A stretch of DNA of 64,000 nucleotides from Strigamia acuminata (lineage: Eukaryota): contig OX442314.1 of assembly GCA_949358305.1 (NCBI GenBank), forward strand, positions 23,808,001 to 23,872,000, given 5' to 3'. A program made the position numbers and the translations under genes. Positions 7,435 through 47,924 of this stretch are shown here, in pieces. The stretch's first letter is position 1; every line of letters begins with the position of its first letter. The notes beneath the pieces are model-generated. The model ran no database searches and was not told where the DNA came from. It worked only from the letters and a program-made list of their open reading frames with translations.

Positions 7435-7451
7435 ATTCAGCTTCGTCTGCG
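7401..7451 (+). promoter_or_regulatory. Predicted -1 ribosomal frameshift signal (gag-pol)
   Basis: A AAA AAC in the gag frame, a 6-nt spacer, then stem GCGCAGGCG/CGTCTGCGC. The -1 frame stays open into pol. Confidence 0.8.
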
Positions 7452-15690: not shown

Positions 15691-15725
15691 GAAAATTGAG
15701 ATCGCTCCGATCCGAGATCGAAGCT

Positions 15726-15737
15726 GGAGGAGGGACG
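15726..15737 (+). promoter_or_regulatory. Polypurine tract of element 2
   Basis: GGAGGAGGGACG immediately before the 3' LTR. Confidence 0.8.
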
Positions 15738-18417: not shown

Positions 18418-20055
18418 ATTTTATTTTCTAGTTTATTAACTTGTATTTTTGCGTTAAAAAGCTAATATGAATTGTTTATACCGGTACTAATATTTTGGTT
18501 ATGAATATTCCTTTCAATTAGCCCTGGGTATGGTATGAATTGTGAATTTTGTATTTTCCTCTTTTCTTTTAAGTATTTGTAATTGTATCTAAACTAATAA
18601 AAATAATTTATTAAAGATTCATACTAATATTTGGTTCTGAGAATTCAATTCAATTGGCCCTGAGTATTTTTAATTGATCAATAAAAATTAAAACCTCTAA
18701 AACATTTACATTTTCCACACACCAAGTCATCAGGTATCCACTTTTGTCTTGTGCGACACTGTTAAGTTGCGTCGCTATTCTGGTGTTTTCTGGTTTGAGG
18801 CCCTAGCTCATAATTGTAGTCTACACATTAAATAAACATTTCGGAACTTGGAGCCCTTCCTCTTCGAGAACCAACAAATCAGCCTCCGCTCGCATGAATA
18901 TCAAAAGCCTGTAGATGTTTAATTGTAATTTCCTTTAATCAATCTGGTGTTGATTGTCTTCATTAATGTCATACAGCTAAAAATGCTCATTCTGCAGTTG
19001 GCCAAAAATGATTTTTCTTGCGCTGATTATTAGTTTTTATAGCAGTGGCAAGAAATCTCATCAAATATTTAGTTCAAATTACTTTTATTTAAAAATAAAT
19101 CTGTAAATTGCAGAAATATAAATTGTAAAAAATATTGGCTTACGTTTTCACAAAAGTAACGAGAAAATTGAATTTAAAATCATCACACTCCGAGAAAGCA
19201 AATGCATATAATAAACTTTATGGTAATAATGAGTATTACAAAAAAATCCACTTGCAATCTTACTCCATAATTGGCTCACGCAATCTTGACCTAAAACCCA
19301 TTATTGCACATGATAGAATCGCTCCTGAATCACTCCGCAGTTTGCCACAGAGACGAGGCCCTCCTGCATTGTGCCGCGGTTTGAATTTATACGAACATGC
19401 ACCATGATGATTTTGACTAATAATTTTGTGCACTGATTATAGTGCATGTACTCACAAATTATTTTAAATCAAATTATGTAGCCATAGTGCTGAGCAAACA
19501 ACATTCTGCATTTCTGCGAGTGCCAGTGAGAGAGAGAGGTTCTTATTCAGATAAAATTCTTGTTCGACTTAAACGTAAGTCCAATTACGCGTAATTTCTC
19601 AAAAATTCTACTCCGTATTAGTTTTCATTTTTATTCTCAATTGTCTTATGGGACAGTGGTATTTTTTTTTATAAAAATGGGTCTCAGTAATGCGAGACCA
19701 AAATGATGCTAAGTTTAATTGCGAAATGAGCGCGGAATAGTGTTCTGACCATATTTCATTTTAATTCGCAATTAAATACATAAAGTGTGTAACGGTTTGG
19801 AATCATAAAAGCCGAAAATTTTTGACATCAAAGCATACAATACAGTATGTATCACATATGTTTCACAACATCTCGGTAGGAATTACGTCATCCGTTCGTG
19901 ACCGGAACGTATTCTTTCTTAGGAATACCAGAGGCAGGACTCAGCCTAAAAACTGGGGCGACGAAATGAAGTGACTTCGTATATTACGGTTCCAAACTGT
20001 CACAAGTTTTATTTTAATTCTTTTCTAATTTATAGCACGAACAGTAAAAACAAGC

Positions 20056-23000
20056 ATGCGTGTCGAAAGAAAAAATAAAGTAATTAAAAAAATTACTAAA
20101 CAATATCAGGATTTGTACGAAGAAACAGATGTTTCGATACTAATGAATGTGATGAACACCAACTTTTCACCAATTTACCGCATGGGTTGGCTGATAATTG
20201 TTATCACTGCATTTTCTTTGTGCACATATCAGTGCTATGAAAGGATGGCTTATTACTTGAGTAAACCAATAAAAGTAAATTCTGAAATGGAAGAAAAGTC
20301 ATTGGATGATTTTCCTGTACTGCATCTAGCCACTATAGTTACGGATGACAGTCATGCTTATTATTCTGCCCGTAATGCTACTAAATACAAAGGTATTTAC
20401 TCATAACTAAACAGTAGTGTGCGTACAGTTAGTTTTCAGGCTCCATTTATTCCGGCACTAATTTCTCCCAGATTTCCACTGAATAAATATTGAATGACCC
20501 ACCAACTCCTTTTCCCACTAAACATTTGTTTTAGCCCACTTATTTAATTATATCCATAATAATTAAATTCTTCATTAAAAATAATTTATTTTTTATATTA
20601 TACAACTACTGCCATCTTAACTTTAGATGGTCTTTCGGTTATTGAATGACCCACCAACTCCTTTTCCCACTAAACATTTGTTTTAGCCCACTTATTTAAT
20701 TATATCCATAATAATTAAATTCTTCATTAAAAATAATTTATTTTTTATATTATACAACTACTGCCATCTTAACTTTAGATGGTCTTTCCCTTTTAATGGA
20801 GTATTCAATTTTTTAGGATATTGTAAAATAAGTGGACAAAAAAAATTTTTTAGTGGGAAAAATAGGGATTGAGACATTAAATATTTATTTAGTGGTAAAC
20901 TCAGGAAGAGTAGGGGTGTAATAATATATCTCTTAAGTTTTCTGACCAAGCTCAACAATCATTTACATTTAGTGCGCAAAAAATTCACATGAAATCATCT
21001 GGTGCATTTAATAATTGCAATGAAAAGTGACTTCTCTGAATAGCCTTACAGAAAATTAACTTGGCAAACCTTAGCTTAGGGAAAGGCAGGTCCAAAAGAA
21101 ATGCTGGATGCCATGGAGGTCATGGACCTTAGAATGGTCATTTAGTCGCAAGTATGTATTAATTGAGAGCAAGAAATGAATTTTTAAATTCATTTCTTGG
21201 ATATTTTGCTAAGTTATAATGCAAAATATAAATTATAAAGAGGCAATAAATGTTGTTAACTGTAGGCTCATCAATACATTGTTGGGTTTGGTCTTGTCAG
21301 CTAATTTGCCGATTGGGTTGCCTGATTGGAATAACTATAAAATCTAAACAATAGTCAATAAAATACTCGATAATAACTTATCTATTTTTTTCAGCATGCA
21401 CTCAAACCTTAACTTTTAAGTTGGATAATCACACATCACTGCGCAAAGTGATGGAATTAAGAAATTATACAAAAATGATTAAAAAAGTGTCCTTCCAATG
21501 GGTATGTAAACAGCAGTTACAGTCGGCCACTAGTGACAAAATTATGAAAAACCTGTTAAATGCAGAAATATTTCAATTGATATTTTTTCCCCATCTCATT
21601 ATAAGTTGCTAACATCTATTTTACAGGGAACCAAAGTGTACAACAATTTGTTTCAAGCATATGAAAAATATACCCTCTATTCCAGTGTAACAAAAATTGA
21701 AAGTGGTATGTCTTAACTTATTTTTACATATTGTATAAACAATGCCGCATTATCGTATCATTCGTATAGTCCAGGGTCCCAAATTTTTAGGGGGTCCCAT
21801 TTCACTCAATAAATTATCAAAAAATAAAAAGTTAATGAATTAGATATTCATTTGGTGCTTGAGGGCCTAGGGTCCCCAAACACCATGATGCGCCAGTGTG
21901 AGTAAATATAACAATATTTTGATTTTACAAAAATTCTCTAATTCTCTGATTACACAGTTAAAAAAGTATCGGTTGGTCCAAAAGCCAGGCTTACAGTTAA
22001 GACACACACAACTGAAAACTTTCCTAGGAATCAGTTAATTGTACATGTAAGTGGAAACTAAACCAATAAAACTTGTAAACTACAAACGAAATAAATATCT
22101 TCCAGACGTATCTGGCAGCAAAAAACTACCACCTGTCCTTTATACCTGCAACAGCATCTCGTTTGGGTCACATGTATTATCAAAATGAGCTTTCTTTTAC
22201 AAGTAGAAGAGTGAGTGAATAAAACATTGGAAAGTTTTATTATCAAATTCACTCATTTCAAATTTTCTAGTACTCATTTTTGAACAGGAAGACAGTTCCG
22301 TGTTGGAATATATCAGCCATGGAAGAGTGCCACGAAAAATGTTATTTAGACGAAATAAAGAAACAAAATTTTTCATGTCAGTAAGTACACTAGTGTTGGC
22401 AGTGGTGATTTTACAGCATTTGAGGCCAGTGCAAGGAGTACGAAATAGGTGTAAACTGTGTCCGAGATTCCTGATTCCCAAAGATTCCAACAGATTCTCA
22501 ACCATGAGAATTGAAATAGGTTGGAACAGATCACATGTTTTAAACATTGAAATAGATTAATCGATTAATCGAAAAGTTTATAAAAATCCAAATTTTCATG
22601 AGCACATCATTGTTTGAACTTGGTGCCGGTCGAGGTATCCCCTGTCATCGAGGACGTCGCGTACGTGTGTCCTGTATGCGGCCAGATGTTTTCGCTGCAC
22701 GACCGGCTCGCCAAACACATGGCGAGTCGGCACCGGCACCGCGGACCGCACCGGAACGCGTGCAGCGCGTCAGAAGTGCCTGGCGGACTGGGCGAGGGCG
22801 GCGGGTTGTTTTTTAAAATTCAGAGTGGAATTGGAACCACCCTAAACATCAAATATCGAATATTTTGGAGTGGAATTGAGAGGGGGCGGAATTGGGATGA
22901 GCTGATTTGAATTGCATCGAGGCGGAATTGCAACTTTTTTTTACTGAAAGGGGCGGTTTAGGAACTGGTGAAATTGATTCTGGCGGAAATGAACCCCGCC

Positions 23001-25371
23001 CATTGAAGCAACTCCACACCATTACTTTAGAAGAAATTTTTACAGTTTGTTGCAAGCCATCTGGGTGGCTAGTTTCATGTTTGAGTCTCCAAATATTCCC
23101 ACTAAAAACATGATTTTATCACTAAAGCAAACATCTTCCCATTGTTCAACTATGAAATGCTTACATTTTTAGATCTAATTAGCAAAATGCAAAATACGAC
23201 CAATAAGCGTGATTCTAGTGAAGCTAATTTTGTTTGTTAGTTAAGCCAACAGTAGCCTTTAATAGAAAAATAAAATGCCCCCCTCCCTTTCTATAATCTT
23301 AAGATTGTTTGTACAACATTTCAGCCTACCATTCCTGCCGAAGGAAACTGATAATGAAGAATGCATCTCAAATCAAATAGCGTGTAACTACACAGAAACA
23401 CTTGGGACAATTCGAATTAATATCAACCCACCATACTCCTGCAATTGTGCGAGAGAATGTGAAAAAACAGTCATCATGTCTCATTACAGCTATGATAAAC
23501 TCCAAACAAACAAAACAATCGTTACATCCTACAGCAACTGGATACTTGAATTGAAAGAATATTACTGCTACGACTTTATCGCTTTCCTGTGTGATGTTGG
23601 GGGTTATTTAAGTCTCTACACAGGAGTATCCTGTATCGCTATTGTTCATTTGTTGTTTTACGACGTCAAGAAAACAATTCAAAAGTTATTATTTGTTGCC
23701 AGAAAAAACCGATTCGAAACCAAAATTATTTCCAAAATTCAAAGTATAATGTTGAAAAGAAAACGTCGTGCAGAAAAGCAGATTCAGTCAGATGACAAGC
23801 AGCTGGCGAAAATCAAAACAATTTTCATACTATTGTCATTCATTTTCAGCTGCTATTTAATATACATCCGAGTCGTAGACTATTTTCGATTTCCTGTATA
23901 TGTTACTATTGAACTTGTTCAAGATCGGTATGTTCAGCCACCAACCATAGTATTTTGCTCTGAACATTCAAACATACACGAGGAAAAAGAAAAGTTCATG
24001 AATACTTCTCGAAGTAATGCCTCAAATACTTCTGCTAATGCTTCATGCGTTGATGATGTAGACATATTAGATTTGCTCGATCAATTCGAAAATGATGCTG
24101 AAGAATTGTGGGATGCAACGGGTGATTTAGAGAGCTACGAATATTTCGTGGTAAGAAATGTCGATTATTAAATAGACAGTTGCATTCAAACACGTTACAA
24201 ATATTTACAATTTCAGGAGTTGGGGAAACTGTTCGGAGCATCTTCAGCAATGTTTAGATTCATCTATGGAAATATGTCCTATATTGATACCGTATTTGGA
24301 AAATGCATCAAAGTAGAATCAGGTACTGTAAATCAAATACATTACAGTACTATAAGGGAGTATAGCATCTGTCTTGTGCATTAAACTTCAGACTGAACAA
24401 AGATTTCTAATTCCCCTTCTATTCTTACATTTTTATAGGGCGTGTAGAATATAATCCTGTAAGTGCTGTAAACAGTATGGGGTTCATAGGTGGAGGAATT
24501 CGTTGCAACGCACACACCAAGGTAACTCATAATATATTTCAGTCACTAGTTTCGAATGATTCACTTGATGGCTTTTAATTTAGTTATTTTTAATGAAATC
24601 AGAAGAACGATTGGATTTTATATCGTATAATATTCAGCCGCACGACGTATTAATGTACATACAATTCTCAAGAAAAACAGTAAGAGCAGAGAAAATAGAA
24701 CTTATCTTCTTTTTATACTAATTAATTTTATACTTATTAATTTTATACTAATTTTAAAAAATAGACAGATAAATTAAATACACCAAAAAACCCATGTACT
24801 ACTTTAGACATATACACAAAGTGTGAAGAAGACTGTATCAACACTAAAATGGAGAATGAAAATATAGCATGCAGGTGTGTATACTGTACAATGGGTATTA
24901 TCCGACACACGTTTTAATTGTAAATGATTAAAATGTATTAGCTTGCCATTTCTTAACTGGACCACTTTACCTAAGTGCAAAACACCAGCCGATGCCAAAG
25001 CAACAAGAAAATCGTTTATTAAAGTGCACAGTGATGGACTTCGCGATTGCAACTGCCACCCTCCGTGTTATTATACTGCTCACTCAAGTTTGATTGACTA
25101 TTTACCAACAAATATTGATTTGGATGTCAAAGATTTAGTTTTAACAGTCTATGAATTTGACGGTAACATTCGCGAGATTTTTAAAGACGAGTCAGCTGTG
25201 CCATTTATCAAATTACTGTGTGATATTGGATCGATTTTTGGCTTTCTTCTCGGACTTTCTATTCTGTTATGCTTTGAATTGCTCGATAAGTTTCTGCACC
25301 AAATTAAATTAATGCAATTAAAGTTGCACTTATTTTATAAGTCAACTCTTAACAGCACTTTGAAAATCTGA
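20056..25371 (+). CDS. Tandem two-subunit DEG/ENaC (pickpocket-like) channel, copy A, about 825 aa, 12 exons
   Basis: GT-AG phase-consistent exons: 20056-20392, 21395-21501, 21627-21705, 21958-22046, 22106-22210, 22271-22380, 23325-24150, 24217-24322, 24439-24521, 24584-24679, 24765-24874, 24942-25371. TM1 (RMGWLIIV..), FP motif, CxCxxxC and TM2 DVGGYLSLYTGVS are followed by a second TM1/ECD/TM2 (DIGSIFGFLLGLS). Confidence 0.88.
20488..20788. repeat. 149-bp direct tandem duplication in intron 1 of copy A
   Basis: 20488-20636 is repeated at 20640-20788. Confidence 0.93.
22662..22733 (+). pseudogene. Isolated C2H2 zinc-finger coding fragment inside intron 6 of copy A
   Basis: YVCPVCGQMFSLHDRLAKHMASRH in a GC-rich island (about 22621-22806); no further fingers. 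Confidence 0.75.
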
Positions 25372-25898
25372 ATGTTTAATTCTTATGAAAACTTATTCTG
25401 GTCTTGTCTGAAAAGACAAGCCACAAAAATCTTTTTCGTATTTTAAATTCTTTTTCTGATAACTAGTAATAAGATTACTAAAATATTTTTAAAGTTTACG
25501 TGTTTTTAAAAATAATTTATTTAAACAATTTTTTCTCACTAAAAATAGTGATTTCTATTATATAAATTATCATAAACAGAAAAGAGGAATGTAAAATTGA
25601 CACCAAAGTTCTAAAATAGTAATCACAGACACTCACAAATGAAGTTTATTGAAAAAATGGGTGTTAACGAAATAAATAAATTTCATTAAAAAATCAATCC
25701 AATTTCTTTCGACTGCATTTAGGCGTACATATTTTACCGATTATGATATGTAGCTATAGTTTTAAGAAAAATAAAACAGAAACCGGCAAACGTTCAAAAG
25801 TGAACATCAAACTGAGACAACTCTCAAACTTTACGAACACTATTCAAACGCAAGTCTTTTCAGTTAAAATTTTCATTTTCCACCTACCAGTATTAATC

Positions 25899-28800
25899 AT
25901 GCTTTTCGGAAGAAAACTAAAAGTTGTTAAAAAAATCATCAAACAGCATCAGCATTTGTACGAAGAAAAACAAGCGGAGAGCTCGATATTCACGAATGTT
26001 TTCAATACAAACATTTCACTCCCGTCTCGAATTGGTTGGCTGATAATAATAATCACAGCATTTTCTTTCTGTTTTTATCAGTGCTATGAAAGAATGGCTT
26101 ATTTCAAGACTAAACCAATCAAAGTAAATGCTAACATTGAAGAAAAACCAATTGACGACTTTCCTGCAATGCATTTAACTTCATTAGTTACAGACGACAG
26201 CACTGCTTATTATGAAGCCTACAGTCGGGGAAAGAAAGGTATTTTTATATCCGATGATACGAGTTCATAGTCCAAAACAATTTTTTTCGTATTCAATAAT
26301 TTGTCTGTCTTTCAGGTTGTAGTCAAGCCTTACGATTTTTGGTTGATGATCATACCCCACTTCGGAAGGTAATGGAATTACGAAACTTTACCAAAATGAT
26401 TAAGACGATTTCTTTAAAAAGGGTAAGTTCAGACTTCATTTACTGTTCTGAATGTCACTTTCTGAGCCAAAAGATGCTACCATTGTTTTGAAACTCTTGG
26501 TTATACGAAATCTTTTTCCCAGAACTTATCAGTTTTCTGCTTCCTATGCAATAATAATTATGTTAGCAGACAATATTTGTAGTAGTGAGGTGACAGAGCG
26601 GACAACAGGGTCGCTGGAAGAGCCGATTGTACTAACAAGGAAAACACATGAATAAGATACTCACAGATTGTTGCAATATTAAATGTGAAGGATTGTTATG
26701 TCATGCTGAATGAGATCCCAAAATAATTTCATTCCATAAACAGCCAACAATGTAAACAATGCGCTGAAAGTTGGCACTATTTTGTCTGTGTATTTATTCA
26801 ATTTGAACAATCAGGCCTAGTGTATGAATACTGTAAACAACATGACTGCCTGCACGAAGACAATAATAGTTTGTAGTGCCAACTTTCAGCTCATTGTTTA
26901 GATTGTTGGCTGTTTATGGAATAAAATTATTTTGGGATCTCATTCAGCATGACATAACAATCCTTCACATTTACTATTGCAACAATCTGTGAGTATCTTA
27001 TTCAAGTGTTCTCCTTGTAAGTTGAATACAGGGGTCCCCCAACAGCTTCAGAAAACATTTTTATTGCGATTCGCAGAACTGCACCCGGGACAGTTCTAGA
27101 TCTGCATGGTCATAGAGCAACCTATACTCTGGCCGAGTATACGAGTGCGCTATTTCCTATTGGCTCAGCCTGATTACTCCTAACTGAGGACTGTGTACTT
27201 CCACCAAGAAAAGTAGTCTTGTTCTATTTTTAATTTATTTGATTATTTTAATGATTGAAATGATGCAAGTTTATTTCTTTCTGTAATAAAATGTTTTTTA
27301 AAATAGTGTTTTATGCTGGTTTAATTTCTAAATACGTTAGTTCAGATTGTTGAGTTTATTGGTTGCTTTGTCAGGAAAGCAAGCAGTATGTATTTTGATC
27401 GATTTTTGGGATCACTACACGAGTGAAAAGGCTGGGCCAATAGGAAATAGCGCACTCTTATACTTGGCCAGAGTATAGATAATAATTAAGCCGAGTTGAC
27501 GAAATTTGCCAACATTTTGAGGACCCTAGCATGAATAAAAAAAGTTACAACCAAAAAAATCATTTGTCCCATCACTTAAAAACAGTGCTGCACATGTTAT
27601 CGTGATAAAGTCTCTTTTCTATAATTTATTTCACAGGGCCGTACATCATATGACAAGATGTTTGATACGAAAGAAATTTACACTGTTTACTCAACTATAA
27701 CACGGATTGAAAATAGTACGTTTTTAAAAATTATTCACTAAACTTGCGGGACTAGCATTGGGATGACAGCGATAAGTATGTGACGGCATGGTCTTAACCA
27801 GGGCAGCTAGGGGCCAGTTGGCCTGGTGTGGGACGCACGGAAAATTAGAGGCAGTGACTCCAGAATGTTGGGTTGGTGGCCTTTAAACCGTTGTCAAAGT
27901 TCCCAGTCTACCCACATGCTGGCAATGCCACTTGGGCCATTGGGCAGTGTGTAACATTAACGCAGGTCACCCTTAGGTGGCCAAGCGGTCACAAGGAAAA
28001 AGTGGACATTCCCCCTTCGGTTTTTTGCCAATAACGCCCCCAACAAGCAGAGATAAAACTATTCCACAAACTGACTATTACCACCCAACCTAATCGCGTC
28101 ACGAGTTTTTTTTACCTTTTGTTGGGTATGTGATTAATGTGTGTCGAGCCAATGCTTCCCCGCGACTTAAAACGTGTAGATTATTCTCACTAATTAACAT
28201 AAATAAACTACATTCACTTGTAACATTACATCCGACAGTTAAAAAGGTATCAATTGGTCCCGAAGCCAGACTTGTTGTAAAGATGCAAATTACTGGGCGT
28301 TATAATCCACGCAAATCACTTCTGCCAGTAAGTGAAAAAAGAAAAGAAAATTAAACATTACGAAAATTAAAAACCATGAAAATATCTCCCAGATATTCGT
28401 TACAGCAAGAGACTACATCTTTTCATTCATAGCAGTTGCAGCAGTTCGCGTGGGTCATTTGTATAATCAAAATGAAATGTCTTTTACAAGCAGAAAAGTG
28501 AGTGAATATTGTCAAAGTTTGAAAACCAAATTCTCACTTTTCATATATTTTTTTAGTATTCATTTTTGAACAGGAAGTCGTCTCCCTGTGTAAGTATATC
28601 TGTTATGGAAGAGTGTCACCAAAAATGTTATTTAAACGAGATAAAACGACAAAACTTTGCATGCCAGTGAGTTCTCTAACATGTTCTTTTATTGTTTAGA
28701 TTATAACTATTTGCGTTATAGATTCCCATTTCTACCTAAAGAAACTGACGAGGAATGTATTTCTAATAAATTGACTTGTAACTACACACGAACACTTGGG

Positions 28801-31062
28801 GAAATTCGATTTAAAGTCAATCCTCCATACACCTGCAACTGTATGAGAGAATGTGAAAAGACAGTCATTACCTCTCACTACAGTTTTGATGAACAGAAGT
28901 CACAGACGGCGATCTTTTACTCCTACAGTAACTGGATACTGGAACTGAAAGAATATTACAGCTACGACTTTATCGCTCTCCTGTGTGATGTTGGAGGCTA
29001 TTTGAGCCTCTACACCGGAATATCCTGCATAGCGATTGTTAAATTATTGTTTCACGACACCCTTGAAACGGTCCAAAAGCTATTGTTCCCGGTCAAAAGA
29101 AGTCGATTCGATAAAAAGATTATTTCTAAAATCGAAAGTATAATGTTGAAGAGAAAACGTCGTGCAGGAAGAAAGAATCAACCAGATGTCAAACAGTTGG
29201 GAAAAATCAAAATAATTTTCATTTTATTGTCATTCATTTTGAGCTGCTATTTAATATTCATCCGAGTCGTAGAATATTTTGGATTTCCTGTGTATGTGAC
29301 TATCGTACTTGTTCAAGATCGGTATGTTCAACCACCTACCATCGTATTTTGCTCTGAAAGTTCCAACATGTACAAAGAAAAAGAAATGTTCATGAATGGT
29401 CCTCGAAGTAACGCCTCAAATACTTCTGCTAACGGTAAATGCGTTGAAGATGTAGACATATTAGATTTGCTCGATCAATTCGAAAATGATGCTGAGGAAT
29501 TATGGGAAGCAACAGGTGATAAGGAAAACTACGAAGCGGTAGTGGTAAGAAATGTCGAATATCATACGGACAGTTGCATTCAAAAAAGTGTAAATGTAAA
29601 CAATTTCAGGAGATGGGAAAAAAGTTTCGCAAAGATTCGGCATTGTTTGTTTCAAATTTTGGAAACCTGTCCTATCTAGATACCGTATTTGGAAAATGTA
29701 TCAAAGTGGAATCGGGTCAGTTTGAATACTTAAACTTATATTCTCATTCGGATTTAGGTTACGTTACAATCGAAGCAATACTCACATAATCAGATTTTTG
29801 TTGGGCCCTCAATAATTGAGTGATTACGATTATTGCAATAATCAACTAATCACAATAATCGCTCATTTAATGTAACCCCTTATTGTGCCGGTTTGGAGTA
29901 TAGTCACAGCCAATGTAGTGTACAGTAGCGTGATCAATTGTGAGCAAAATTGTACATTGCAGATTCCCCTATCTGTGGGACATTCCAACATAAGTTATTG
30001 GTCATGCGTATACATCCCCCATTTACGGTTTTACCAATCGTTCTATTTATAAAAATTCATAAAAAAAATGAAAAATGCAAAACAATTTCCGAGCAAATTC
30101 CTTAATTTTTTTTTTGAATTTTTACAGGGAGTGTGGAATACAATCCTGTAAGTGCTATGTTCCACGTGGGCTTCTTTGGTGAAGGAATACGTTGCAACAC
30201 ACATACTAAAGTAAATCATAATTTGTTGAAAGGCAATCATTTCAAAAGTTTAATTCCAACGTTTTTTATTCAGCTGTTTTTAATGAAATCAGAAGAAAGA
30301 ATTGATTTTTTAACATACAACATTCATCCTCATGACGTTCAAATGAACATAAAATTCTCAAGACAAACAGTAAAAAAAATTGTTTTCAGAATGGAAATAA
30401 CGTTACAAATATAAAACTGACTGCCACGCAGCCCCATGCACAATCCCACAATTTCCTATGTAAAAAATGTTTATACTTTCTCTAACTTTTCAAAATTTTA
30501 GTTAGATAAATTAGACACGCCTACAAATCCATGTACGTCATTAGAAGAATTCAAAAAGTGCGAAGAAATCTGCGTGAATACTAAAATGGAAATGGAAAAT
30601 ATATCTTGCAAGTACGGTTTAAAAAATACTTTGATTTGATTGGAAATAATTTAAATGTATTACAAATTTACTAGATTGCCATTTCTAAACTCAACCAACT
30701 TACCGATGTGCAAAACAGCAGCCGATGCTAAATCAACAAAAAGATCGTACATTAAGGTGCACTCAAACACTGATGCCCATCGCGATTGCGATTGCCACCC
30801 CCCGTGTTATTATACCATTTACACAAATGTAGTTGATTATTCCGTTGCCATCACTGAGAAACAAATGTTAGTCGTAACTTCATATGAATTCGACAGTAAC
30901 ATTCGCGAGATTTTCAAAGAAGAATTAGCTGTGCCTTTTATCAAATTACTGTGTGACATTGGATCAATTTTGGGCTTTTTTCTCGCGCTATCTATTCTTT
31001 CGTTCTTCGAATTACCTGGAAAGTTTCTGCACAATTTTAAAATTAAGATGCGGTTAAATTAA
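25899..31062 (+). CDS. Tandem two-subunit DEG/ENaC channel, copy B (intact, 12 exons)
   Basis: Exons 25899-26238, 26316-26422, 27637-27715, 28239-28327, 28393-28497, 28557-28666, 28722-29544, 29610-29715, 30128-30210, 30274-30369, 30502-30611, 30675-31062. Internal exon lengths match copy A (exon 7 is one codon shorter). Confidence 0.88.
26635..27018. mobile_element. Foldback/MITE-like long inverted repeat (arms about 145 bp) in intron 2 of copy B
   Basis: ACAAGGAAAACAC...TTGGCACTA is near-complementary to TAGTGCCAA...GTGTTCTCCTTGT. No clear TSD. Confidence 0.8.
27122..27478. mobile_element. MITE-like element with about 50-bp terminal inverted repeats
   Basis: CTATACTCTGGCCGAGTATA..GAGTGCGCTATTTCCTATTGG versus CCAATAGGAAATAGCGCACTC..TATACTTGGCCAGAGTATAG. 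Confidence 0.8.
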
Positions 31063-31101: not shown

Positions 31102-31235
31102 TGTGAGAATGATTTAGACATACGGTTAAGTTGAATGTCTGAACTAGACTGATTTATTATCTCAAAGCATAGAACAAATCCAAATTACATAGAACAAGTC
31201 ATCGAAAAGACCCCCAGGGGGCGCTATCGCTTACA
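31102..31235 (-). repeat. 3' LTR of element 4
   Basis: Direct repeat of 36108-36241 with TG...CA termini. Confidence 0.96.
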
Positions 31236-31285
31236 CGACCCCCCTTTTGGGTTGTCGTCCTCGACAACAATACAAAATTACAAAA

Positions 31286-37436: not shown

Positions 37437-40400
37437 ATGCTATTTGGAAGAAAACTAAAAGTTGTTAAAAAAATCATCAAGCAGCACCAGGGTTTGTACG
37501 AAGAAAAACAAACGGAGACCTCGATATTGACGAATGTTTTCAATACAAACTTTTCACTCCCGTCTCGCATTAGTTGGCTGATAATAATAATCACAGCATT
37601 TTCTTTCTGTTCTTATCAGTGCTACGAAAGAATGGTTTATTTCATGACTAAACCAATCAAAGTAAATGCTAACATTGAAGAAAAATCAGTTGACGACTTT
37701 CCCGCAATGCATTTAACTTCATTAGTTACAGACGAAAGTACTGCTTATTATGATGCCCACAGTCCGGGAAAGAAAGGTATTTTTATATCCGATGGCGCGA
37801 GTTTATAGTACAAAACAATTTTTTTCGTATTCAATAATTTGTCTGTCTTTCAGGTTGTAGTCAAGCCTTACGATTTTTGATTGATGATCATACCCCTCTT
37901 CGAAAGGTAATGGAATTACGAAACTTTACCAAAATGATTAAGACAATTTCTTTAAAGAGGGTAAGTTCATACTTCAATTACTATTATAAATGCTAACCTC
38001 TGGTACCAGTGTCGTGACCACGTTTTAAACATGGCCAGTTTTGAAAATGTTGTTGAATAAGAGCTCAAGGCAGTGGGCCAATGAAAATACTGTATAGTTG
38101 CACAGTTTCGTCGAGATTTGGTGTGACCAACCAGGGCTGGACTGGGTACAAATTTAGTACCGGGAAATCTAGATGGGTAGGGCCACAAGCACAGGCTACA
38201 GTGTGCCAGGGACGGTCCACAGTGGGCTCATCACCGGGCCACCAGGCCACAGGCCACCGGGAAACTCCCGGTAGCCCGCCGGGCCAGTCCAGCACTGTGA
38301 CCAACTGTCTATGTGCATAAAGGCCAAGATTGTGCTTGTGGTAGAAATGAACTTACAAAGAACACCAACACTCGGCCAAACAAAAATATTGCAACAAGTA
38401 TTTCGTTATCATAAATGGCAACAAAATGATAAGCGACGAAATGAAGAGACCCTGTTTAGTGTGAAGGAGCTGCCAACGGCGAATTATTAGTGAGGCAAGT
38501 GACCATTGGTCACTACAACTAAAATTTCAAAACGGTTGTTATTTGCAAACTTGTAATGACGTATTATAATGATGATAGATTATCACCAAGCACAGCTGAC
38601 AAAATTTGCCAAAATTTGAGGTTCCTAGCACGAATAGAAAAAAATTAGAAAGGCAAAGTTAGTAATAAACTATGCCGCAACGTAAAACTAATTGGGAGAG
38701 GGTTGTTTATGTTTTTCGATTTCAAATTGTGACCAACTCCCACCAGTTGGCACGGGCAATGATGTTGAGAGGAAGTTATTTCCGTCTATCGTTAGAAATT
38801 GTTTTCCATTGAGGCATTGTAAATTCCCGACATTTCGAGTTGGTGCTGGGACAAGAGGTCATTTAGTCATTTAGAATTTCACTTTGTCAACGCCGTTTTG
38901 TCAAAGTGTGAAACTCAAAAATCCTTCAAAATGTAATCTCAAATTCGAACAATCAGGGCCGTTTCGACCTATGAGGCGAAGAGGCGGCCGCCAGGTGGCC
39001 ATGCCTTGGTAAAGTTACTTACCACGGCATGGCCACCTGCCGGCCGCCTCTTCGCCTCATAGGTCGAAACGGCCCTGCGAACAATAAACAAAAATACACT
39101 TATTTTAAAACATAATACATTCAAAAATTAATCCATTCCGCATTGTTTCGAACACCAGCATTGCTTCTGCAATGTCACAGCCTTTGTCAGCATATCTGCG
39201 CCCATCTGGTTGGTTCCAGTGTGCAGCAACTCTACTTCTCCGTTCATGATCTCCTCCTTAGCAAAACAACACCTTAAATTAATATGTTTTGAGCGTTAGT
39301 GTTGCGCCAATCCTCACGCCAGCATCTCGGCCGACTCGCTTTAGTCTGCAGTCGTGCACAATTCCCCATCAATTCGCTCAATTCAAATTCTTGAAAAAAG
39401 TCCCTCTTTCATCGCGATAAACTCGCAATCAGACTCGCAGCTCGACATCCCAACACAAGTTTGTTTCGACGACTTCTAGACTACTCTGGCTCCCGATAGC
39501 AAATATATGGAACTGGTAGTTGACTTCCTGTCCTCAATGTTGCAGTTCCAGCTTCCCGTCCACATAGCCGCTCATATGGTCCTCGTTCCGCATAAATTGC
39601 AACTTTTTCCCTTTCGTTCCTTTCAAGTAATGTAAAATTAGCTTACCCATTTTGCAGTGCGTCAAACCGTGGCTGTGGTTGTAGCGACACAGGTAATGGG
39701 TGGCGTACGCAATGTCCGGCCTCGTCCCTTGTCAGAGTACATTAGCGACCACATCAGGCTCTGGTAGAGCACCTCCTCGGAGTTTACATCCGTCTCCAAA
39801 CTCGGTTGGTCGCATTTTACAATCGGCGTTTAAACCAGCTTGCACGAGCTGATTTCAAAATTCTCCAGTACCTTCTCGATGTATGCTTCCTGCGACACGG
39901 TTATCATCCCGCTCTCATTGTCGCACTTCACGACAAAGCCCAATATTCGCGTCGGCGTTCTGAGGTCCTTGATTTCGACGGATTTTCATAGCAACTCGCA
40001 CGTCCATTCCTCAATCTCAATGCTCGATGTAACATTTAACATGTCGTCCACGAAAATCCCCAATGTGGTTGTTCCACTTCAAACATCTCAAAAAAGTCGC
40101 GATTAACCATCATATTGCATGTTGCGCCCAAGTCCAGTTTCCACTGTCGCCCCTCCACCTTGTTGATTCAAACTTGAAAAGCAAATTTGTCCTTGGCTTT
40201 CACAGCACTGACGGTCGCATCCGGCTGCTGGTCCTTCTTTGCGTTCGACTTTGACTTCTTGTGGTTGGTGTTCCCCTTGGTCTCGTTGCTCGCTTGGCTC
40301 CTGCAGTCCCTGGCCATATGCCCGAACTTTTGGCTGTTGTAGCACTTCACATGCTTCATATCTCGCTTGCATTCACCGCTCAACTCGCTGATCTGTTAAC

Positions 40401-43400
40401 CGCCCTGTCGGTTTACCTTCGTGCGGTGCGAAAAGTTTACCTTGTGAAGCTTCCCGATCACGTATTCGATCAAGTCTTCTGGCGGGAAGAAAAAACAGAA
40501 AATAAACACTACAATAATTAAAAACCCTAAAAATATCTTCCAGATATTCCTTACAGCAAAAGACTACATCTTTTCATTCATAGCGGTTGCAGCAGTTCGC
40601 TTGGGTCATTTATATAATCAAAATGAAATTTCCTTTACAAGCAGAAAAGTGAGTGAATATTGTCGAAGTTTGAAAACCAAATTCTCACTTTTCATATATT
40701 TTTTTTTAGTATTCATTTTTGAACAGGAAGTCGTCTCCCTGTGTAAAAATATCTGTTATGGAAGAGTGTCACCAAAACTGTTACTTAACCGAAATAAAAC
40801 GACAAAATTTTACATGCCAGTAAGTTATCGGATTTGTCCTTTACTTGTTTGTATTCTAACTATTAGGCGTAATACGTTATAGATTCCCATTTCTACCTAA
40901 CGAATTTCACGAGGAATGTATTTCTAATCAATTGACTTGTAACTACACACGAACACTTGGCGAAATTCGAAGTAATGTCAACCCACCATACCTCTGTAAC
41001 TGTGTGAGAGAATGTGAAAAGACAGTCATTACCTCTCACTACAATTTTGATAAACAGAAGTCACAGACGACGACCTTTTACTCCTACAGCAACTGGATAC
41101 TAAAATTGAAAGAATATTACAGCTACGACTTTATCGCTCTCCTGTGTGATGTTGGAGGCTATTTGAGCCTCTACACCGGAATATCCTGCATAGCGATTGT
41201 TAAATTATTGTTTCACGACACCCTTGAAACGGTCCAAAAGCTATTGTTTCCAGTCAAAAGAAGTCGATTCGAGAAAAAGATTATTTCGAAAATCGAAAGT
41301 ATAATGTTGAAGAGAAAACGTCGTGCAGGAAGAAAGAATCAACCAGATGTCAAACAGTTGGGAAAAATCAAAATAATTTTCGTTTTATTGTCATTCATTT
41401 TGAGCTGCTATTTAATATTCATCCGAGTCGTAGAATATTTTGCATTTCCTGTCTATGTTACTATTGTACTTGTTCAAGATCGGTACGTTCAACCACCAAC
41501 CATGACATTCTGCACTGAAAATTCCGAAGTGTACGAAAAAAAAGAAAAGTTCATGAATGATTTTCGAAGTAATGCCTCAAATATTTCCGCTAACGTTAAA
41601 TGCGTTGAAGATATAGATATATTAGATTTGCTCGATCAGTTTGAAAATGATGCTGATGAATTATGGGAAGCAACGGGTGATTTAGACAACTACGAAACCA
41701 TAAACGTAAAAAATGTCGATGATTTAATGGACAATTACAGTCAATCAGTTGTAAATATGAACAATTTCAGGAACTGGGGAAGCAGTTTGGCAAAGATACG
41801 GCATTGTTCATACCAAATTTTGGAAACATGTCCTATCTGGATACTGTATTTGGAAAATGCATCAAAGTGGAAACGGGTCAGTTTACATAATTAAAATAAA
41901 ATTCTGTTCTGTTTTATACGTCCACAACAAAATTTTCACAGGTATTGTGGAGTACAATCCTGTAACGGCTGTGCACCATATGGGCTTCAAGAGTGGAGGA
42001 ATACGTTGCAACTCACATACTAAGGTTAATCATAATTTATTGAAAACAATCATTTCAGAATTTTAACTCCGGGCTTTTTTATTCAGCTATTTTTAATGAA
42101 ATCTGAAGATAGAATTGATTTCCTAACATACAATATTCACCCTCACGACGTTTCAATGACCATGAAATTCTCAAGACAAACGGTAAAAACGTTGAATACA
42201 GAATAGAAGTATCGTATTTTATCAAATAAAAACCGCGGCTGTTATTCAAAACGGGCACTCTGAGCCGCGGCTCTTAATCAAAGGTGGCTCTTTATTACAA
42301 CTGTTTACCATATTTTGATTGGAATTTCAATTTCTCGATTAAAATTTTAGTTTTTTCCATTGAAATTCACTTTTTCCCATTGAAATTTCCCTTTCATTAA
42401 CCGTTTCCAGTTTGGTTATAAAAACCCTCAAATAGTAGCCGTGGCTACTATTCGAGGGCTCTTGTGGTTCTTATTCCAAACCGCATCTCTGAGGCGCAGC
42501 TACTATTCGAGGGCGGCTACAAAACGAGGACGACTCATAATTGGTAAAATACGGTAATTAATTTTATATTGAGACTATTTGTTTACGAGTTTCGAGACAT
42601 AGTATTGCAAATTAGCTGACACCCATTTGATGGCACCACAATACAAAACAAAAGTTAACATTACGCAAATTATCCACTTCCAATTTCTGTTTCTAAGACG
42701 AGAACCCGTTGGACTTGGGCGTCACCTTATGCCAACTGGCTCCAATAGTCCCCCCTCTCACTTGCCCTGCACAACATTACAAATAAAAAACTGACAATTG
42801 TCAAACATGCACAATCTCTACGACGTAGTAGACTTACGACGCGGTGATGTAATGATAATAATGCCCTCTGGGGTTAACCACTGTCATCACTCATTCACGA
42901 GTGTAACATGTGTTTCCCTCAACAGTAAAGATGGAAGTATTCTATTTGGACTTTTTATTTATCAACTACACAACAAACTCATATTTAAGAAAGTTTTTAT
43001 AGTCTTACTTTCTCTGACTTTTCAAAATTTAGTTAGATAAATTGGACACCCCTACAAATCCATGTACGTCATTAGAAGAATTCAAAAAATGCGAAGAAAT
43101 CTGCGTGAATACTAAAATGGAAATGGAACATATATCTTGCAGGTATAACGGTTTAAAAAATACTTTGATTTGATTGGAAATAATTTAAATGTATTACAAA
43201 TTTACTAGATTGCCATTTCTGAACTTAACCAACCTACCAATGTGCAAAACAGCAGCCGATGCTAAATCAACAAAAAGATCGTACATTAAGGTGCACTCAA
43301 ACACTGATGCCCATCACGATTGCAATTGCCATCCCCCGTGTTATTATACCCTCTACACAAATTTAATTGATTATTCCACCGCCAACGATAAAGCAATGGT

Positions 43401-43590
43401 AGTCGTAACATCATATGAATTCGACAGCAACATTCGCGAGATTTTCAAAGAAGAGTTAGCTGTTCCTTTTATCAAATTACTGTGCGACATTGGATCAATT
43501 TTGGGCTTTTTTCTTGCACTGTCCATTCTTTCGTGTTTCGAAATACTTGAAAAGTTCCTGCACAGTATTAAGATGCGATTAAAAACTTAA
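37437..43590 (+). CDS. Tandem two-subunit DEG/ENaC channel, copy C; exons 3-4 lost in frame, possibly a pseudogene
   Basis: Exons 37437-37776, 37854-37960, 40544-40648, 40710-40819, 40883-41705, 41771-41876, 41942-42024, 42087-42182, 43033-43142, 43209-43590. The 79- and 89-nt exons were not found; a Copia fragment sits in their place. Confidence 0.75.
38132..38297. mobile_element. hAT-type MITE (166 bp)
   Basis: TIRs CAGGGCTGGACTGG/CCAGTCCAGCACTG; 8-bp TSD TGACCAAC. Confidence 0.9.
38954..39077. mobile_element. Palindromic hAT-type MITE (124 bp)
   Basis: Near-perfect hairpin CAGGGCCGTTTCGACC.../...GGTCGAAACGGCCCTG; 8-bp TSD CGAACAAT. Confidence 0.93.
39120..40480 (-). mobile_element. Degenerate Ty1/copia fragment (knuckle, protease start, RT C-terminal part, RNase H); boundaries approximate
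   Basis: Minus-strand peptides CYNSQKFGHMARDC, WKLDLGATCNM, GIFVDDML, TRPDIAYATHYL, HYLKGTK, KHINLR and QMGADMLTKAV, with frameshifts and no integrase. Confidence 0.85.
42210..42556. mobile_element. Tc1/pogo-type MITE in the copy C intron after the 96-nt exon
   Basis: Termini TATCGTATTTTATCAAAT / ATTGGTAAAATACGGTA (TA flanks), internal GCGGCT..TATTC repeats. The left part recurs at about 47153-47211. Confidence 0.7.
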
Positions 43591-46019: not shown

Positions 46020-47126
46020 GGTATTCTTATGGAAGAGTGTCACCAAAACTGTTACTTAACTGAAATAAAACAACAAAATTTAACATGCCAGTGAGTTATC
46101 TGTTTTGTCCTTTACTTGTTTAGATTCTAACGTTGTGCAGAAAAGCAGATTCAGCCAAACGACAAGTAGTTGGGAAAAATCAAAATAATTTTCATTTTAT
46201 TGTCATTCATTTTGAGCTGCTATTTAATATTCATCCGAATCGTAGAATATTTTGGATTTCCTATCTATGTTATTATTGTACTTGTTTAAGATCGGTATGT
46301 TCAACCACCTACCATAGTATTTTGCTCTGAACATTCCGACGTGTACGAAAACAAAGAAAAGCTCATAAATGATTTTAGAAGTAATGCCTCAAATATTTCT
46401 ACTAACGTTAAATGCGTTGCAGATATAGATATATTAAATTTGCTCGATCAGTTTGAAAATGATGCTGATGAATTATAGGAAGCAACGGATGATAAGGAAA
46501 ACTACGAATTCATAATGGTAAAAAATGTCGATTATCTAATTGCGGTCAATCAGTTGTAAATATGAACAATTTCAGGAAGTGGGAAAGCAGTTTGGTAAAG
46601 ATACGGCATTGTTCATACCAAATTTTGGAAATATGTCCTATCTGGATACTGTATTTGGAAAATGCATCAAAGTGAAAACGGGTCAGTTTACATAATTAAA
46701 ATAAAATTCTGTTCTGTTATATACGTCCACAACCAGAAAGTTGTGCAGACGTAACTGCCTTTCTGAGCATTGTAATACATTTTTGCCTCCGTTCTATTTT
46801 ATAAGAATTCATAAAATGTGCAAATGACAAAATAATTTCTGAATTCCTTCGTTATTTTGACAAATTTTCGAAGGCAGTGTGGAGTACAATCCTGTAACGG
46901 CTGTGCACCATATGGGCTTCAAGATTGGAGGAATGCGTTGTAACTCGCATACTAAGGTTAATCATAATTTATTGAAAACAATCATTTCAGTATTTTAACT
47001 CCCCCCCCCCCCCCCAGGGTATTTTATTCAGCTATTTTTAATGAAATCTGAAGATAGAATTGATTTCCTAACATACAATATTCACCCTCACGACGTTTTA
47101 ATGACCATGAAATACTCAAGACAAAC
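46020..47126 (+). pseudogene. DEG/ENaC copy D remnant (parts of exons 6-10)
   Basis: Close to copy C sequence, but with in-frame stops (GAATTATAG, AAGTAG), indels, deleted module-1 TM2 and a missing donor after exon 10. Confidence 0.87.
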
Positions 47127-47924
47127 CACATTGAATACAGAATAGGAGTACTGTACCGGTATTTTACCAAATTAAAAACCGCGGCTGTTATTCAAAACGG
47201 GCACTCTGAGCGACATTTTTAGCAAACAAAAACGACATTTTTTGCAAACAAAAACGACATTTTTTACCTGAAAGATAGACCGGTCAAATAATGATATATA
47301 AACTTAAAACAGCCAAACTGAAGGGAAGTTTTTTTTTGTCCATGACTATACACAAACAGAGCGTTTCTTCAAGAAATGCTTGCTGCGACTCCGGGAATTT
47401 CAATTAATAACAATACAGTATTATTAATTATTCGCAGTTGATATGCCGTATTAGGGTGAAGTGTGCCTAGGGAGTTTTCACCCCCAAGTTACACTTGGCT
47501 TGTGCTTCGCGTGTGCCAAATTAAGGCAAAATAAAACCAATTCTGTAGTGGTGAAAATAATTTTATTCAAAATAAAATCAAGATCACCACATGCTCTAAC
47601 AATGTATGGTTCCCGTCGTAATTGTAATTGTAATGGTAATTGTAGCGGCTTCGCCTCACCCTTCTAGTCGACCCTAAGCATACCTGCTGCAATTTTCAAA
47701 GACAATGTAGGTTTTCTAGACACGTTGATTGCTAAAAACAAAACCCAGGATTAAAAAAGTGAACAATAAGTGTTTTAAATCCGAAAAATACAACTTAATT
47801 GCATCAAATTAATGCAAAAACTTCCGGAAGAGTATAGTAGTTCATACTTGTTTATTTACAACTGACTGATCTTTAAAATCACAAAAACAAAACACATTTG
47901 CTATTTCTACCTACACTTTCCTAC

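What the first reader, a model, noticed from the sequence alone, without database searches (positions are those of the whole stretch)
23575..23958. Natural head-to-tail fusion of two DEG/ENaC subunits, with the junction inside one exon
Seen: one stop-free exon encodes TM2 of module 1 (FLCDVGGYLSLYTGVS), a basic linker of about 52 aa, then a new TM1 and post-TM1 motifs (IFILLSFIFSCYLIYIRVVDYFRFPV...PPTIVFC). The same occurs in copies B (28722-29544) and C (40883-41705), so it is not a gene-merging artefact. Both modules have a 110-nt Cys-rich exon followed by a phase-2 intron before (L/F)PFL, which indicates an ancient internal duplication. Known: DEG/ENaC subunits have two TMs and assemble as trimers. 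Inference: a 4-TM covalent dimer must take a third subunit (2+1), leave a module out, or link pores together, which would be an unusual architecture.
Basis: partly seen in the sequence, partly recalled or inferred. Interest (0 to 1): 0.87.

Follow-up and report, generated by a model that had tools for sequence, protein, structure and literature searches.

The report
Natural two-subunit DEG/ENaC channel genes
Three neighbouring genes of a centipede-like genome each carry two complete DEG/ENaC sodium-channel subunits joined head to tail in one open reading frame, an arrangement conserved across a large centipede gene family that would likely force an unusual assembly on a channel normally built from three separate subunits.

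Summary
Window 23325-24150 is one stop-free 826-nt exon. It encodes the end of one DEG/ENaC module with its TM2, a 51-aa basic linker, then a new TM1 and the start of a second module. Pfam ASC hits it twice, profile end first, then profile start. My gene models, all with GT-AG introns, give 825, 811 and 753 aa for three tandem copies, each with TM1-TM2-TM1-TM2. The linker has no stop and no indel in any of the three, and dN/dS is about 0.22 at dS about 1. A fourth, decayed copy has stops there. In a search of 1.84 billion representatives, 28 of 50 hits span the same junction. Of the 26 looked up, 25 are uncharacterised Strigamia maritima proteins and one is an unnamed contig. In a tree, 18 of 18 upstream modules and 11 of 11 downstream modules form separate clades, so the fusion is old and happened once. 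The closest solved relatives are the centipede channels BRTNaC1 and PDPNaC1, both single-module homotrimers. No RNA data were available, so a single transcript, and how a two-module chain fits a trimeric pore, remain untested. Six literature searches found no report of a natural tandem DEG/ENaC.

The parts
20056..25371 (+). Gene copy A, predicted 825-aa two-module DEG/ENaC protein, 12 exons
   Evidence: Exons 20056-20392, 21395-21501, 21627-21705, 21958-22046, 22106-22210, 22271-22380, 23325-24150, 24217-24322, 24439-24521, 24584-24679, 24765-24874, 24942-25371 (stop TGA 25369-71). All introns are GT-AG and the joined CDS is 2478 nt with no internal stop. My HMMs of the TM regions place TM1 at 45-83, TM2 at 353-388, TM1 at 440-479 and TM2 at 764-802.
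25899..31062 (+). Gene copy B, predicted 811-aa two-module protein, 12 exons
   Evidence: Exons 25899-26238, 26316-26422, 27637-27715, 28239-28327, 28393-28497, 28557-28666, 28722-29544, 29610-29715, 30128-30210, 30274-30369, 30502-30611, 30675-31062. Exon lengths and phases are as in A. 66.9% identical to A.
37437..43590 (+). Gene copy C, predicted 753-aa two-module protein, 10 exons found
   Evidence: Exons 37437-37776, 37854-37960, 40544-40648, 40710-40819, 40883-41705, 41771-41876, 41942-42024, 42087-42182, 43033-43142, 43209-43590. The counterparts of A's exons 3 and 4 (79+89 nt = 56 codons) were not found in the 2.6-kb intron. Their absence keeps the frame. 86.1% identical to B.
23325..24150 (+). 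Central exon of copy A (826 nt) holding the junction
   Evidence: One open frame. Pfam ASC hits it in two stretches. It encodes the last third of ectodomain 1, TM2a, the linker, TM1b and the start of ectodomain 2.
23563..23664 (+). Pre-TM2 and TM2 of module 1, copy A (YCYDFIAFLCDVGGYLSLYTGVSCIAIVHLLFYD)
   Evidence: Carries the G-V-S triplet at the place of the family's GxS motif. dN/dS 0.13 against B and C.
23665..23817 (+). Linker, copy A, 51 aa, basic, predicted cytosolic
   Evidence: 17 K+R against 5 D+E over 52 aa. No stop and no indel in A, B or C. dN/dS 0.22/0.21 (A-B/A-C) and 0.08 (B-C). The other two frames of this stretch hold stops.
23818..23958 (+). TM1 of module 2 and post-TM1 motif, copy A (TIFILLSFIFSCYLIYIRVV ... 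PPTIVFC)
   Evidence: Pfam ASC profile positions 27-98.
28722..29544 (+). Central exon of copy B (823 nt); linker 29059-29211
40883..41705 (+). Central exon of copy C (823 nt); linker 41220-41372
22271..22380 (+). 110-nt Cys-rich exon of module 1, copy A, followed by a phase-2 intron
   Evidence: Aligns with the module-2 exon inside the 25%-identity match between the modules.
24765..24874 (+). 110-nt Cys-rich exon of module 2, copy A, followed by a phase-2 intron
46029..47163 (+). Copy D: decayed fragment of a fourth copy
   Evidence: tblastn matches to A residues 256-276, 423-551, 547-588 and 583-660. In-frame stops at 'NDK*LGKIK' (in the linker), 'LV*DRYVQPPT' and 'DEL*EATDD', and the first half of the central exon is missing. 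It lies next to a copia-type gag ORF at 44590-46002.

Best explanation
Each of the three tandem genes is predicted to encode one chain of 753-825 aa holding two DEG/ENaC subunit modules (complete in copies A and B; module 1 of copy C lacks two exons) joined by a 51-aa basic linker, and the two modules would likely sit side by side, in fixed order, in one trimeric pore whose third place is taken by another subunit. Shown by the sequence and my calls: the open junction exon in three copies, canonical splice sites giving complete reading frames, purifying selection on both modules and on the linker, four membrane segments in the order TM1-TM2-TM1-TM2, and the same junction in a large Strigamia maritima family in which upstream and downstream modules are separate old clades. 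Inferred: the topology is N-terminus in, ectodomain 1 out, linker in (positive-inside rule; N-glycosylation sequons only in the two ectodomains), ectodomain 2 out, C-terminus in. This topology is what makes a head-to-tail fusion possible. Also inferred: the linker is far longer than needed to reach the neighbouring position in a trimer, so the fusion fixes a module1-module2 neighbour pair, as engineered ASIC concatemers do. The third place would be filled by a single-module paralogue or by a module of a second chain. By kinship with the antennal centipede channels BRTNaC1 and PDPNaC1, and from the tandem, fast-turning-over gene cluster, the likely role is sensory (inferred). My odds: two-module protein really made, about 0.85; side-by-side in one pore with a third subunit, about 0.45.
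For: Junction in one exon, Pfam ASC end then start. Gene models with 11, 11 and 9 GT-AG introns and no internal stop. dN/dS: module 1 0.19-0.22, linker 0.21-0.22, module 2 0.25-0.27 for A against B or C, at dS 0.65-1.06. Decayed copy D has stops in the same stretch. TM order by my HMMs. 28 of 50 hits span the junction in one aligned stretch; 25 of the 26 looked up are S. maritima and one is an unnamed 1154-nt contig. Four S. maritima models (P0010, P0011, P0017, P0022) show the full TM1-TM2-TM1-TM2 order, with 41-58 aa between the TM2 and TM1 model matches. Tree: 18 of 18 upstream and 11 of 11 downstream modules in separate clades, SH-aLRT 88 each, one change of state. AlphaFold2 model of the paralogue P0011 (pLDDT 70.4, pTM 0.66): residues 423-787 match BRTNaC1 (Z 21.5-21.8), residues 41-393 match chicken ASIC1 (Z 14.1), and the linker 393-422 is below pLDDT 50. 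Engineered covalently linked ASIC subunits form functional trimers (PMC10329638, passages read). Single-module relatives exist in S. maritima as possible third partners (for example P0035, 444 aa).
Against: No RNA or protein evidence was available, so one transcript is not shown. The fold was made on an S. maritima paralogue, not on the window's protein, and I could not read the relative placement of its two modules. A two-module chain does not divide evenly into a trimer, and nothing here shows which partner fills the third place. The twin-pore reading fits the same data. Module 2 of copies B and C has A-L-S where A has G-L-S, and module 2 has no recognisable pre-TM1 motif in the window's genes, so the modules may not be equivalent pore formers. 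Copy C lacks two module-1 exons. SH-aLRT 88 is moderate support, from a quick search without bootstrap.
Confidence: 0.5

Rival explanations
1. Twin pores: three two-module chains assemble into two adjacent trimeric pores, one made of three module 1 copies and one of three module 2 copies (or 2+1 and 1+2 mixes), tied together under the membrane by three linkers.
For: This is the only way to use every module of a homomeric complex (6 modules = 2 trimers). Module 1 and module 2 are old, separately conserved clades, as expected if each forms its own kind of pore. Linkers of 41-68 aa in the family could span the distance between neighbouring pores (my estimate, not computed).
Against: The far-side subunits would need linkers stretched over about 100 angstroms (my estimate from the size of solved ASIC trimers, recalled). 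The linker is no longer than the termini used in engineered same-pore concatemers.
Confidence: 0.25
2. Only one module conducts. The other is a tethered non-pore or regulatory module, or is left outside the pore.
For: Module 2 of B and C has A-L-S instead of G-x-S. Module 2 lacks a pre-TM1 motif. Copy C has lost 56 codons of ectodomain 1 and still keeps its frame.
Against: Both modules are under similar purifying selection (dN/dS 0.19-0.27). Both keep TM1, a Cys-rich ectodomain and TM2, and both fold as complete ASIC-like subunits in the paralogue model.
Confidence: 0.1
3. Single-module proteins are made after all: by an internal start (the conserved Met of 'SIMLKRKRR'), by alternative processing of the RNA, or by cleavage of the chain at the polybasic KRKRR site.
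For: A Met followed by a polybasic stretch is conserved in A, B, C and P0002.
Against: Module 1 has no stop codon anywhere before module 2 in any of the three copies. The more distant P0003 has no Met at that place. The whole linker is conserved as protein. The linker is predicted cytosolic, out of reach of secretory-pathway furin-type proteases (inference).
Confidence: 0.1
4. Artefact or dead genes: mis-assembly, or pseudogenes whose open frame is chance.
For: The cluster sits among recent retrotransposon insertions and contains one decayed copy.
Against: Probability of the open exon by chance is about 2e-9 per copy. Three copies have intact splice sites. dN/dS is well below 1. DNA contigs of two runs (X1, X2; one study, possibly the window's own sample, so not independent) cover the junction, and a variant contig with 6 listed differences stays open. 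The junction recurs in another species' proteome.
Confidence: 0.03

Closest known systems
[quoted passage not shown]
   Same: Nearest solved relative by sequence: E 2e-13 against P0002, and both modules of P0002 match it. Also nearest by fold: Z 21.5-21.8 over 329-336 residues against module 2 of P0011. Same DEG/ENaC fold, centipede origin, expressed in antennae (PMC9974506, passages).
   Different: BRTNaC1 is a 431-aa protein with two membrane segments in a family of trimeric channels. The window's proteins carry two such units in one chain. Heat activation was not tested and cannot be inferred here.
PDPNaC1, proton-dissociation-permeated sodium channel of the same centipede, PDB 9jf7
   Same: Second-nearest solved relative (E 1.6e-10; Z 19.8). 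A Gly and a Ser of its TM2 set selectivity and proton block (PMC12714832, synopsis). The window's modules keep G-x-S at the aligned place in three of four module types.
   Different: 421 aa, single module, assembles as a homotrimer.
Engineered ASIC concatemers (covalently linked ASIC1a, ASIC2a and ASIC3 subunits)
   Same: Subunits joined head to tail through their cytosolic ends fix order and stoichiometry and still form functional trimers (PMC10329638, passages). This is what the natural fusion would work like.
   Different: They are laboratory constructs of three linked subunits. Here the link is natural, joins two modules only, is old, and is inherited by a whole gene family.
ENaC alpha-beta-gamma heterotrimer
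   Same: A DEG/ENaC pore built from different paralogous subunits in a defined arrangement. Module 1 and module 2 are likewise old paralogues (25% identity).
   Different: ENaC subunits are separate gene products (established knowledge, recalled). Here two of them would be one chain.
Tandem-pore channels of other families (K2P, two-pore channels)
   Same: Covalent duplication of a pore-forming unit that changes how many chains build a pore (recalled, analogy only).
   Different: In those families two tandem chains divide evenly into a four-fold pore. Two modules do not divide into a three-fold pore.

Membership tests
DEG/ENaC (Pfam ASC, PF00858) | Match to the ASC profile above Pfam's gathering score | tested here: met
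   First exon of A 27.8 bits, central exons 38.5-43 bits, last exon of A 31.6 bits, against the cut-off of 23.6. The spliced whole proteins could not be sent to the tool.
DEG/ENaC (Pfam ASC, PF00858) | Subunit plan: TM1, large Cys-rich ectodomain, TM2 | tested here: met
   Met twice per chain: TM1 45-83, TM2 353-388, TM1 440-479, TM2 764-802 in A. Both modules of the paralogue P0011 superpose on whole ASIC or BRTNaC1 chains.
DEG/ENaC (Pfam ASC, PF00858) | G/S-x-S selectivity motif in TM2 (motif recalled; Gly378 and Ser376 of PDPNaC1 named) | tested here: met
   A has GVS and GLS. B and C have GIS in module 1 but ALS in module 2.
DEG/ENaC (Pfam ASC, PF00858) | His-Gly motif before TM1 (recalled; the paper on it is listed in the references seen) | tested here: not met
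   Module 1 has 'NTNFSPIYR' or 'NTNFSLPSR' at that place. Module 2 has nothing like it in A, B or C. Single-module arthropod relatives and the linkers of P0016 and P0025 have 'PG' instead of 'HG', so the clade as a whole departs from the motif.
DEG/ENaC (Pfam ASC, PF00858) | One module (two membrane segments) per polypeptide | tested here: not met
   Two modules per predicted chain in A, B and C and in at least four complete S. maritima models. This is the point of the finding.
DEG/ENaC (Pfam ASC, PF00858) | Assembly as a trimer around one pore | not testable with these tools
   The chains are too long for the complex predictor (limit 1000 residues). No experiment was possible.
Myriapod BRTNaC1/PDPNaC1 group | Closer to these centipede channels than to ASIC, ENaC or FaNaC | tested here: met
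   Sequence: E 2e-13 and 1.6e-10 against 0.005 or weaker for ASICs. Fold: Z 19.8-21.8 against 14.7 or lower for ASICs.
Myriapod BRTNaC1/PDPNaC1 group | Gating by heat or by proton dissociation; antennal expression | not testable with these tools
   No expression data and no functional assay.

The most novel reading that the evidence does not exclude
Geophilomorph centipedes have turned the subunit of a trimeric channel into covalent multi-module chains as a family-wide design. The two-module proteins seen here hard-wire a neighbour pair or tie two pores together. In a sister clade of Strigamia maritima, three modules appear to be strung in one chain: P0019 has modules a, b and the start of c, and P0018 has the end of a, then b and c. 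That would be a natural single-chain trimer.
Probability: 0.3. Interest if true: 0.9.

Novelty: new variant of a known kind. Interest (0 to 1): 0.72.

Why it matters
Every DEG/ENaC channel named in the papers I read or among the solved structures listed here (ASIC, ENaC, FaNaC, BRTNaC1, PDPNaC1) is a one-module subunit; I know of no studied exception (recalled). Order and stoichiometry in heteromers are hard to establish, and laboratories build concatemers to fix them. A natural, selected, family-wide concatenation would show that evolution used the same trick. It raises a sharp question that can be tested: how do two linked modules fit a three-fold pore? It also offers ready-made constructs for subunit-order studies. 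It means that counts of centipede DEG/ENaC genes based on one domain per gene are off, and that automated splitting of such models would be wrong.

Tried and rejected
- **RNA evidence.** No RNA holder was listed for window 20000-25500. The two runs that hold it (X1, X2, one study) are DNA contigs without spliced joints, so expression could not be addressed.
- **Whole genome.** None is held for this window.
- **Word-indexed search.** The search with the central exon among proteins of 150-480 aa found nothing. Among longer proteins it found only P0002.
- **Earlier notes of this scan.** None for this genome or this sequence.
- **ESM Atlas with P0011.** Only single-module arthropod ASC clusters of 376-485 aa came up. 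Clusters of fewer than 50 members cannot appear there, so this says little.
- **Literature.** Six searches found no report of a natural tandem DEG/ENaC. Searches returned mostly unrelated papers because of my choice of terms. The S. maritima genome paper has no occurrence of ENaC, pickpocket, degenerin, amiloride, 'sodium channel' or ASIC in its main text; its supplements were not read. The insect PPK paper mentions Strigamia once and no fusion. Vizueta et al. 2020, cited there for candidate PPK genes in Strigamia, is not in the library and was not seen.
- **Complex prediction.** Not sent. Three modules exceed the 1000-residue limit, and a module1-module2 pair would pass by likeness to solved trimers without telling the rival assemblies apart.
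- **Copy C.** A search for its missing exons 3 and 4 with peptides and DNA of A and B found nothing convincing.
- **Hydropathy scan.** My simple scan at a cut-off of 1.6 missed some TM segments. I replaced it with HMMs built from the TM regions.
Full report
**What is there.** The window is eukaryotic DNA (42.5% G+C), full of LTR retrotransposons. Between 20.0 and 43.6 kb on the + strand lie three paralogous genes. I read the exon as 23325-24150, with AG before it and GTAAGA after it. Its translation runs through the last third of a DEG/ENaC ectodomain, the pre-TM2/TM2 block 'YCYDFIAFLCDVGGYLSLYTGVSCIAIVHLLFYD', and a 51-aa linker. It then continues with a new hydrophobic helix 'TIFILLSFIFSCYLIYIRVV', the post-TM1 stretch ending in 'PPTIVFC', and about 65 residues of a new ectodomain. 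Pfam's ASC model hits the exon in two stretches, the end of the profile (318/319-453 of 455) and the start (27-98), all above the gathering score. With the exon's own base composition the chance of 275 codons without a stop is about 2e-9. The other two frames of the linker stretch contain stops.

**Gene models.** No RNA data could be had (see below), so I built the models from paralogue conservation and splice signals.
- Copy A has 12 exons, all introns GT-AG, a CDS of 2478 nt and 825 aa.
- Copy B has the same 12 exons with the same lengths and phases, and 811 aa.
- Copy C has 10 of them and 753 aa. The counterparts of exons 3 and 4 (79+89 nt) were not found in an intron that holds transposon remains, and their loss keeps the frame.

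My HMMs built from the TM regions find the order TM1-TM2-TM1-TM2 in all three. Each module has a 110-nt Cys-rich exon ending in a phase-2 intron just before (L/F)PFL. The two modules of A align over 163 residues at 25% identity (E 6e-11), across exactly these exons.

**Is the linker translated?** Between A and B or C, synonymous divergence is about 1, yet the 51 linker codons have no indel and no stop. Their dN/dS is 0.21-0.22, the same as module 1 (0.19-0.22) and module 2 (0.25-0.27). A fourth copy at 46029-47163, next to a copia-type gag ORF, serves as a natural control. It has lost the first half of the central exon and carries in-frame stops, one of them inside the linker. DNA contigs of two runs (X1, X2; one study, possibly the window's own sample, so not independent) cover the junction. 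A variant contig with six listed differences in this stretch, five of them changing the protein, stays open (further differences may not have been listed). So there is no stop by which module 1 could end as a protein of its own.

**Relatives.** A full HMMER search of the central exon against 1.84 billion representatives gave 50 hits at E up to 0.001. In 28 of them, one aligned stretch runs from TM2 through the linker into the next TM1.
- I looked up 32 of the hit proteins: 29 are Strigamia maritima UniProt entries (most called 'Uncharacterized protein'), one is a spiny lobster protein, one a mayfly protein, and one an unnamed 1154-nt contig.
- Of the 28 junction-spanning hits, 26 were looked up: 25 are S. 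maritima and one is the unnamed contig. P0024 and P0031 were not looked up.
- The lobster and mayfly proteins (434 and 457 aa) are ordinary single-module subunits.
- The best hit, T1JBK6 (P0002), is 60-65% identical to my models. The window therefore probably comes from a centipede related to Strigamia rather than from the annotated S. maritima gene itself (inference).
- Four S. maritima models (P0010, P0011, P0017, P0022; 791-907 aa) show the full four-segment order. Gaps between the TM2 and TM1 model matches in the family are about 41-68 aa.

These are automated gene models, so any single one could be a merger. The next point argues against that for the family as a whole.

**One old event.** I cut the 175 residues up to and including each TM2 out of all proteins that had one, which gave 51 modules. 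P0001, P0044 and P0052 were left out, as were pieces under 120 residues. I then built a maximum-likelihood tree.
- All 18 modules that are followed by a further module fall in one clade.
- All 11 modules that end their protein fall in another. Each clade has SH-aLRT 88 (quick search, no bootstrap).
- On the tree the trait changes once among these 29 modules.

Random merging of neighbouring single-module genes would not give this pattern. The fusion therefore predates the expansion of the family, and the two-module unit has been duplicated as a whole many times. Some relatives (P0016, P0025) still carry an 'FPGL' stretch in the linker, about 25 residues before the downstream TM1. I read it as a pre-TM1 motif, which suggests that the linker is the C-terminal tail of one subunit plus the N-terminal tail of the next (inference).

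**Structure.** The nearest solved proteins by sequence are the centipede antennal channels BRTNaC1 and PDPNaC1. An AlphaFold2 model of the paralogue P0011 (26-row alignment, mean pLDDT 70.4, pTM 0.66) contains two complete subunit folds:
- residues 423-787 against BRTNaC1, Z 21.5-21.8;
- residues 41-393 against chicken ASIC1, Z 14.1, and against ENaC, Z 11.7;
- a low-confidence linker at 393-422.

I had no access to the coordinates, so I cannot say how the model places the modules relative to each other.

**How it most likely works.** Shown: the two-module reading frame and its conservation.

Inferred topology: the linker is cytosolic. It has 17 K+R against 5 D+E, and the sequons lie only in the two ectodomains. 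That is the only topology in which TM2 of one module can be followed by TM1 of the next.

Inferred assembly: I favour the two modules as neighbours in one trimeric pore in fixed order, with a third subunit from elsewhere (odds about 0.45). The linker is of the length that works in engineered ASIC concatemers (PMC10329638, passages), and single-module paralogues exist. The main rival is a twin pore made of three chains (about 0.25). Lesser rivals are a silent or excluded module, and production of single modules by an internal start or by cleavage. Nothing I could run separates these.

**Novelty.** Six full-text searches and passages of five papers gave no description of a natural tandem DEG/ENaC subunit. 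The two characterised centipede relatives are a 431-aa two-TM protein of a trimeric superfamily and a 421-aa homotrimer. The library lacks most subscription journals, and one relevant paper (Vizueta et al. 2020) could not be read. The sequences have also sat in UniProt as uncharacterised entries. I therefore rate this a new variant of a known kind, not a new kind.

**A lead beyond the window.** In a third clade of the tree, modules within one S. maritima model are close to each other. P0019 (936 aa) holds modules a, b and the start of c. P0018 (856 aa) holds the end of a, then b and a complete c that stops shortly after TM2. The two overlap over 585 aligned columns at 76% identity, gaps included. 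Modules a and b run on past TM2 into similar 'KIKP(P/S)QLVTTF' linkers, whereas c ends. This would be a three-module chain, a natural single-chain trimer, unless the models merge three tandem genes. The genome DNA needed to decide was not available here.

Noticed in passing
P0018 and P0019 (Strigamia maritima T1IU28 and T1IZL2), not in the window: Two overlapping gene models together describe three DEG/ENaC modules in one chain. P0018 has three TM2 motifs; P0019 has two and the start of a third module. Modules a and b continue past TM2 into similar linkers, and module c ends. This is either a natural single-chain trimer or three merged tandem genes.
   Followed up: partly
window 37961-40543 (intron 2 of copy C): Copy C lacks the counterparts of exons 3 and 4 of copies A and B (56 codons of ectodomain 1). 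The intron instead holds a minus-strand ORF at 40171-40395 with a spacing of Cys and His that looks like a gag zinc knuckle (by eye; not scanned). The frame is kept, so C may make a shortened module 1 or be on the way to decay.
   Followed up: partly
window 3377-16175: Direct repeats, identical over the 300 nt reported (3377-3676 and 15735-16034; the repeated ORFs run on to 3817 and 16175), flank long open frames (4279-7431, 7395-11534, 12578-15235). This looks like a recently inserted LTR retrotransposon of about 12.8 kb. The inner ORFs were not scanned against Pfam.
   Followed up: no
window 50451-63743: A second pair of direct repeats, identical over the 300 nt reported (50451-50750 and 63241-63540; the repeated ORFs run on to 50953 and 63743), flanks long open frames (52025-55327, 55168-60090, 60864-63140). 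Probably another young LTR retrotransposon; not scanned.
   Followed up: no
window 31153-36467: A repeated ORF start at 31153 and 36159 flanks a 1533-aa open frame on the minus strand (31286-35887), inserted between copies B and C. Probably an LTR retrotransposon. It accounts for the wider spacing of B and C.
   Followed up: no
window 17284-18414 (+): A single uninterrupted open frame of 377 codons has TPR, CS and SGS domains (SGS 84.5 bits, CS 56.5 bits), the architecture of SGT1 (name recalled). It appears intronless, just upstream of the channel cluster.
   Followed up: partly
window 47928-49352 (-): A 475-codon open frame with eight LRR_8 stretches (151.5 bits): a leucine-rich-repeat protein gene downstream of the cluster.
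   Followed up: partly
window 44590-46002 (+): A copia-type gag ORF (Retrotran_gag_2, 149.7 bits) lies directly upstream of the decayed channel copy D, which may have been truncated by this insertion.
   Followed up: partly
window 23571-23877, runs X1 and X2: A variant contig across the junction of copy A differs at seven places in 307 nt. Of the six listed, five change the protein (R405P, S431P, L436W, A437E, T441I), and two of these match the residues of copies B and C. It could be an allele, a near-identical copy elsewhere, or gene conversion.
   Followed up: partly
window 25500-25799 and 37037-37336: The 300 nt upstream of the first exons of copies B and C are 95% identical, more conserved than most of their introns. 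These may be shared promoter or 5'-UTR sequence of the duplicated unit.
   Followed up: no
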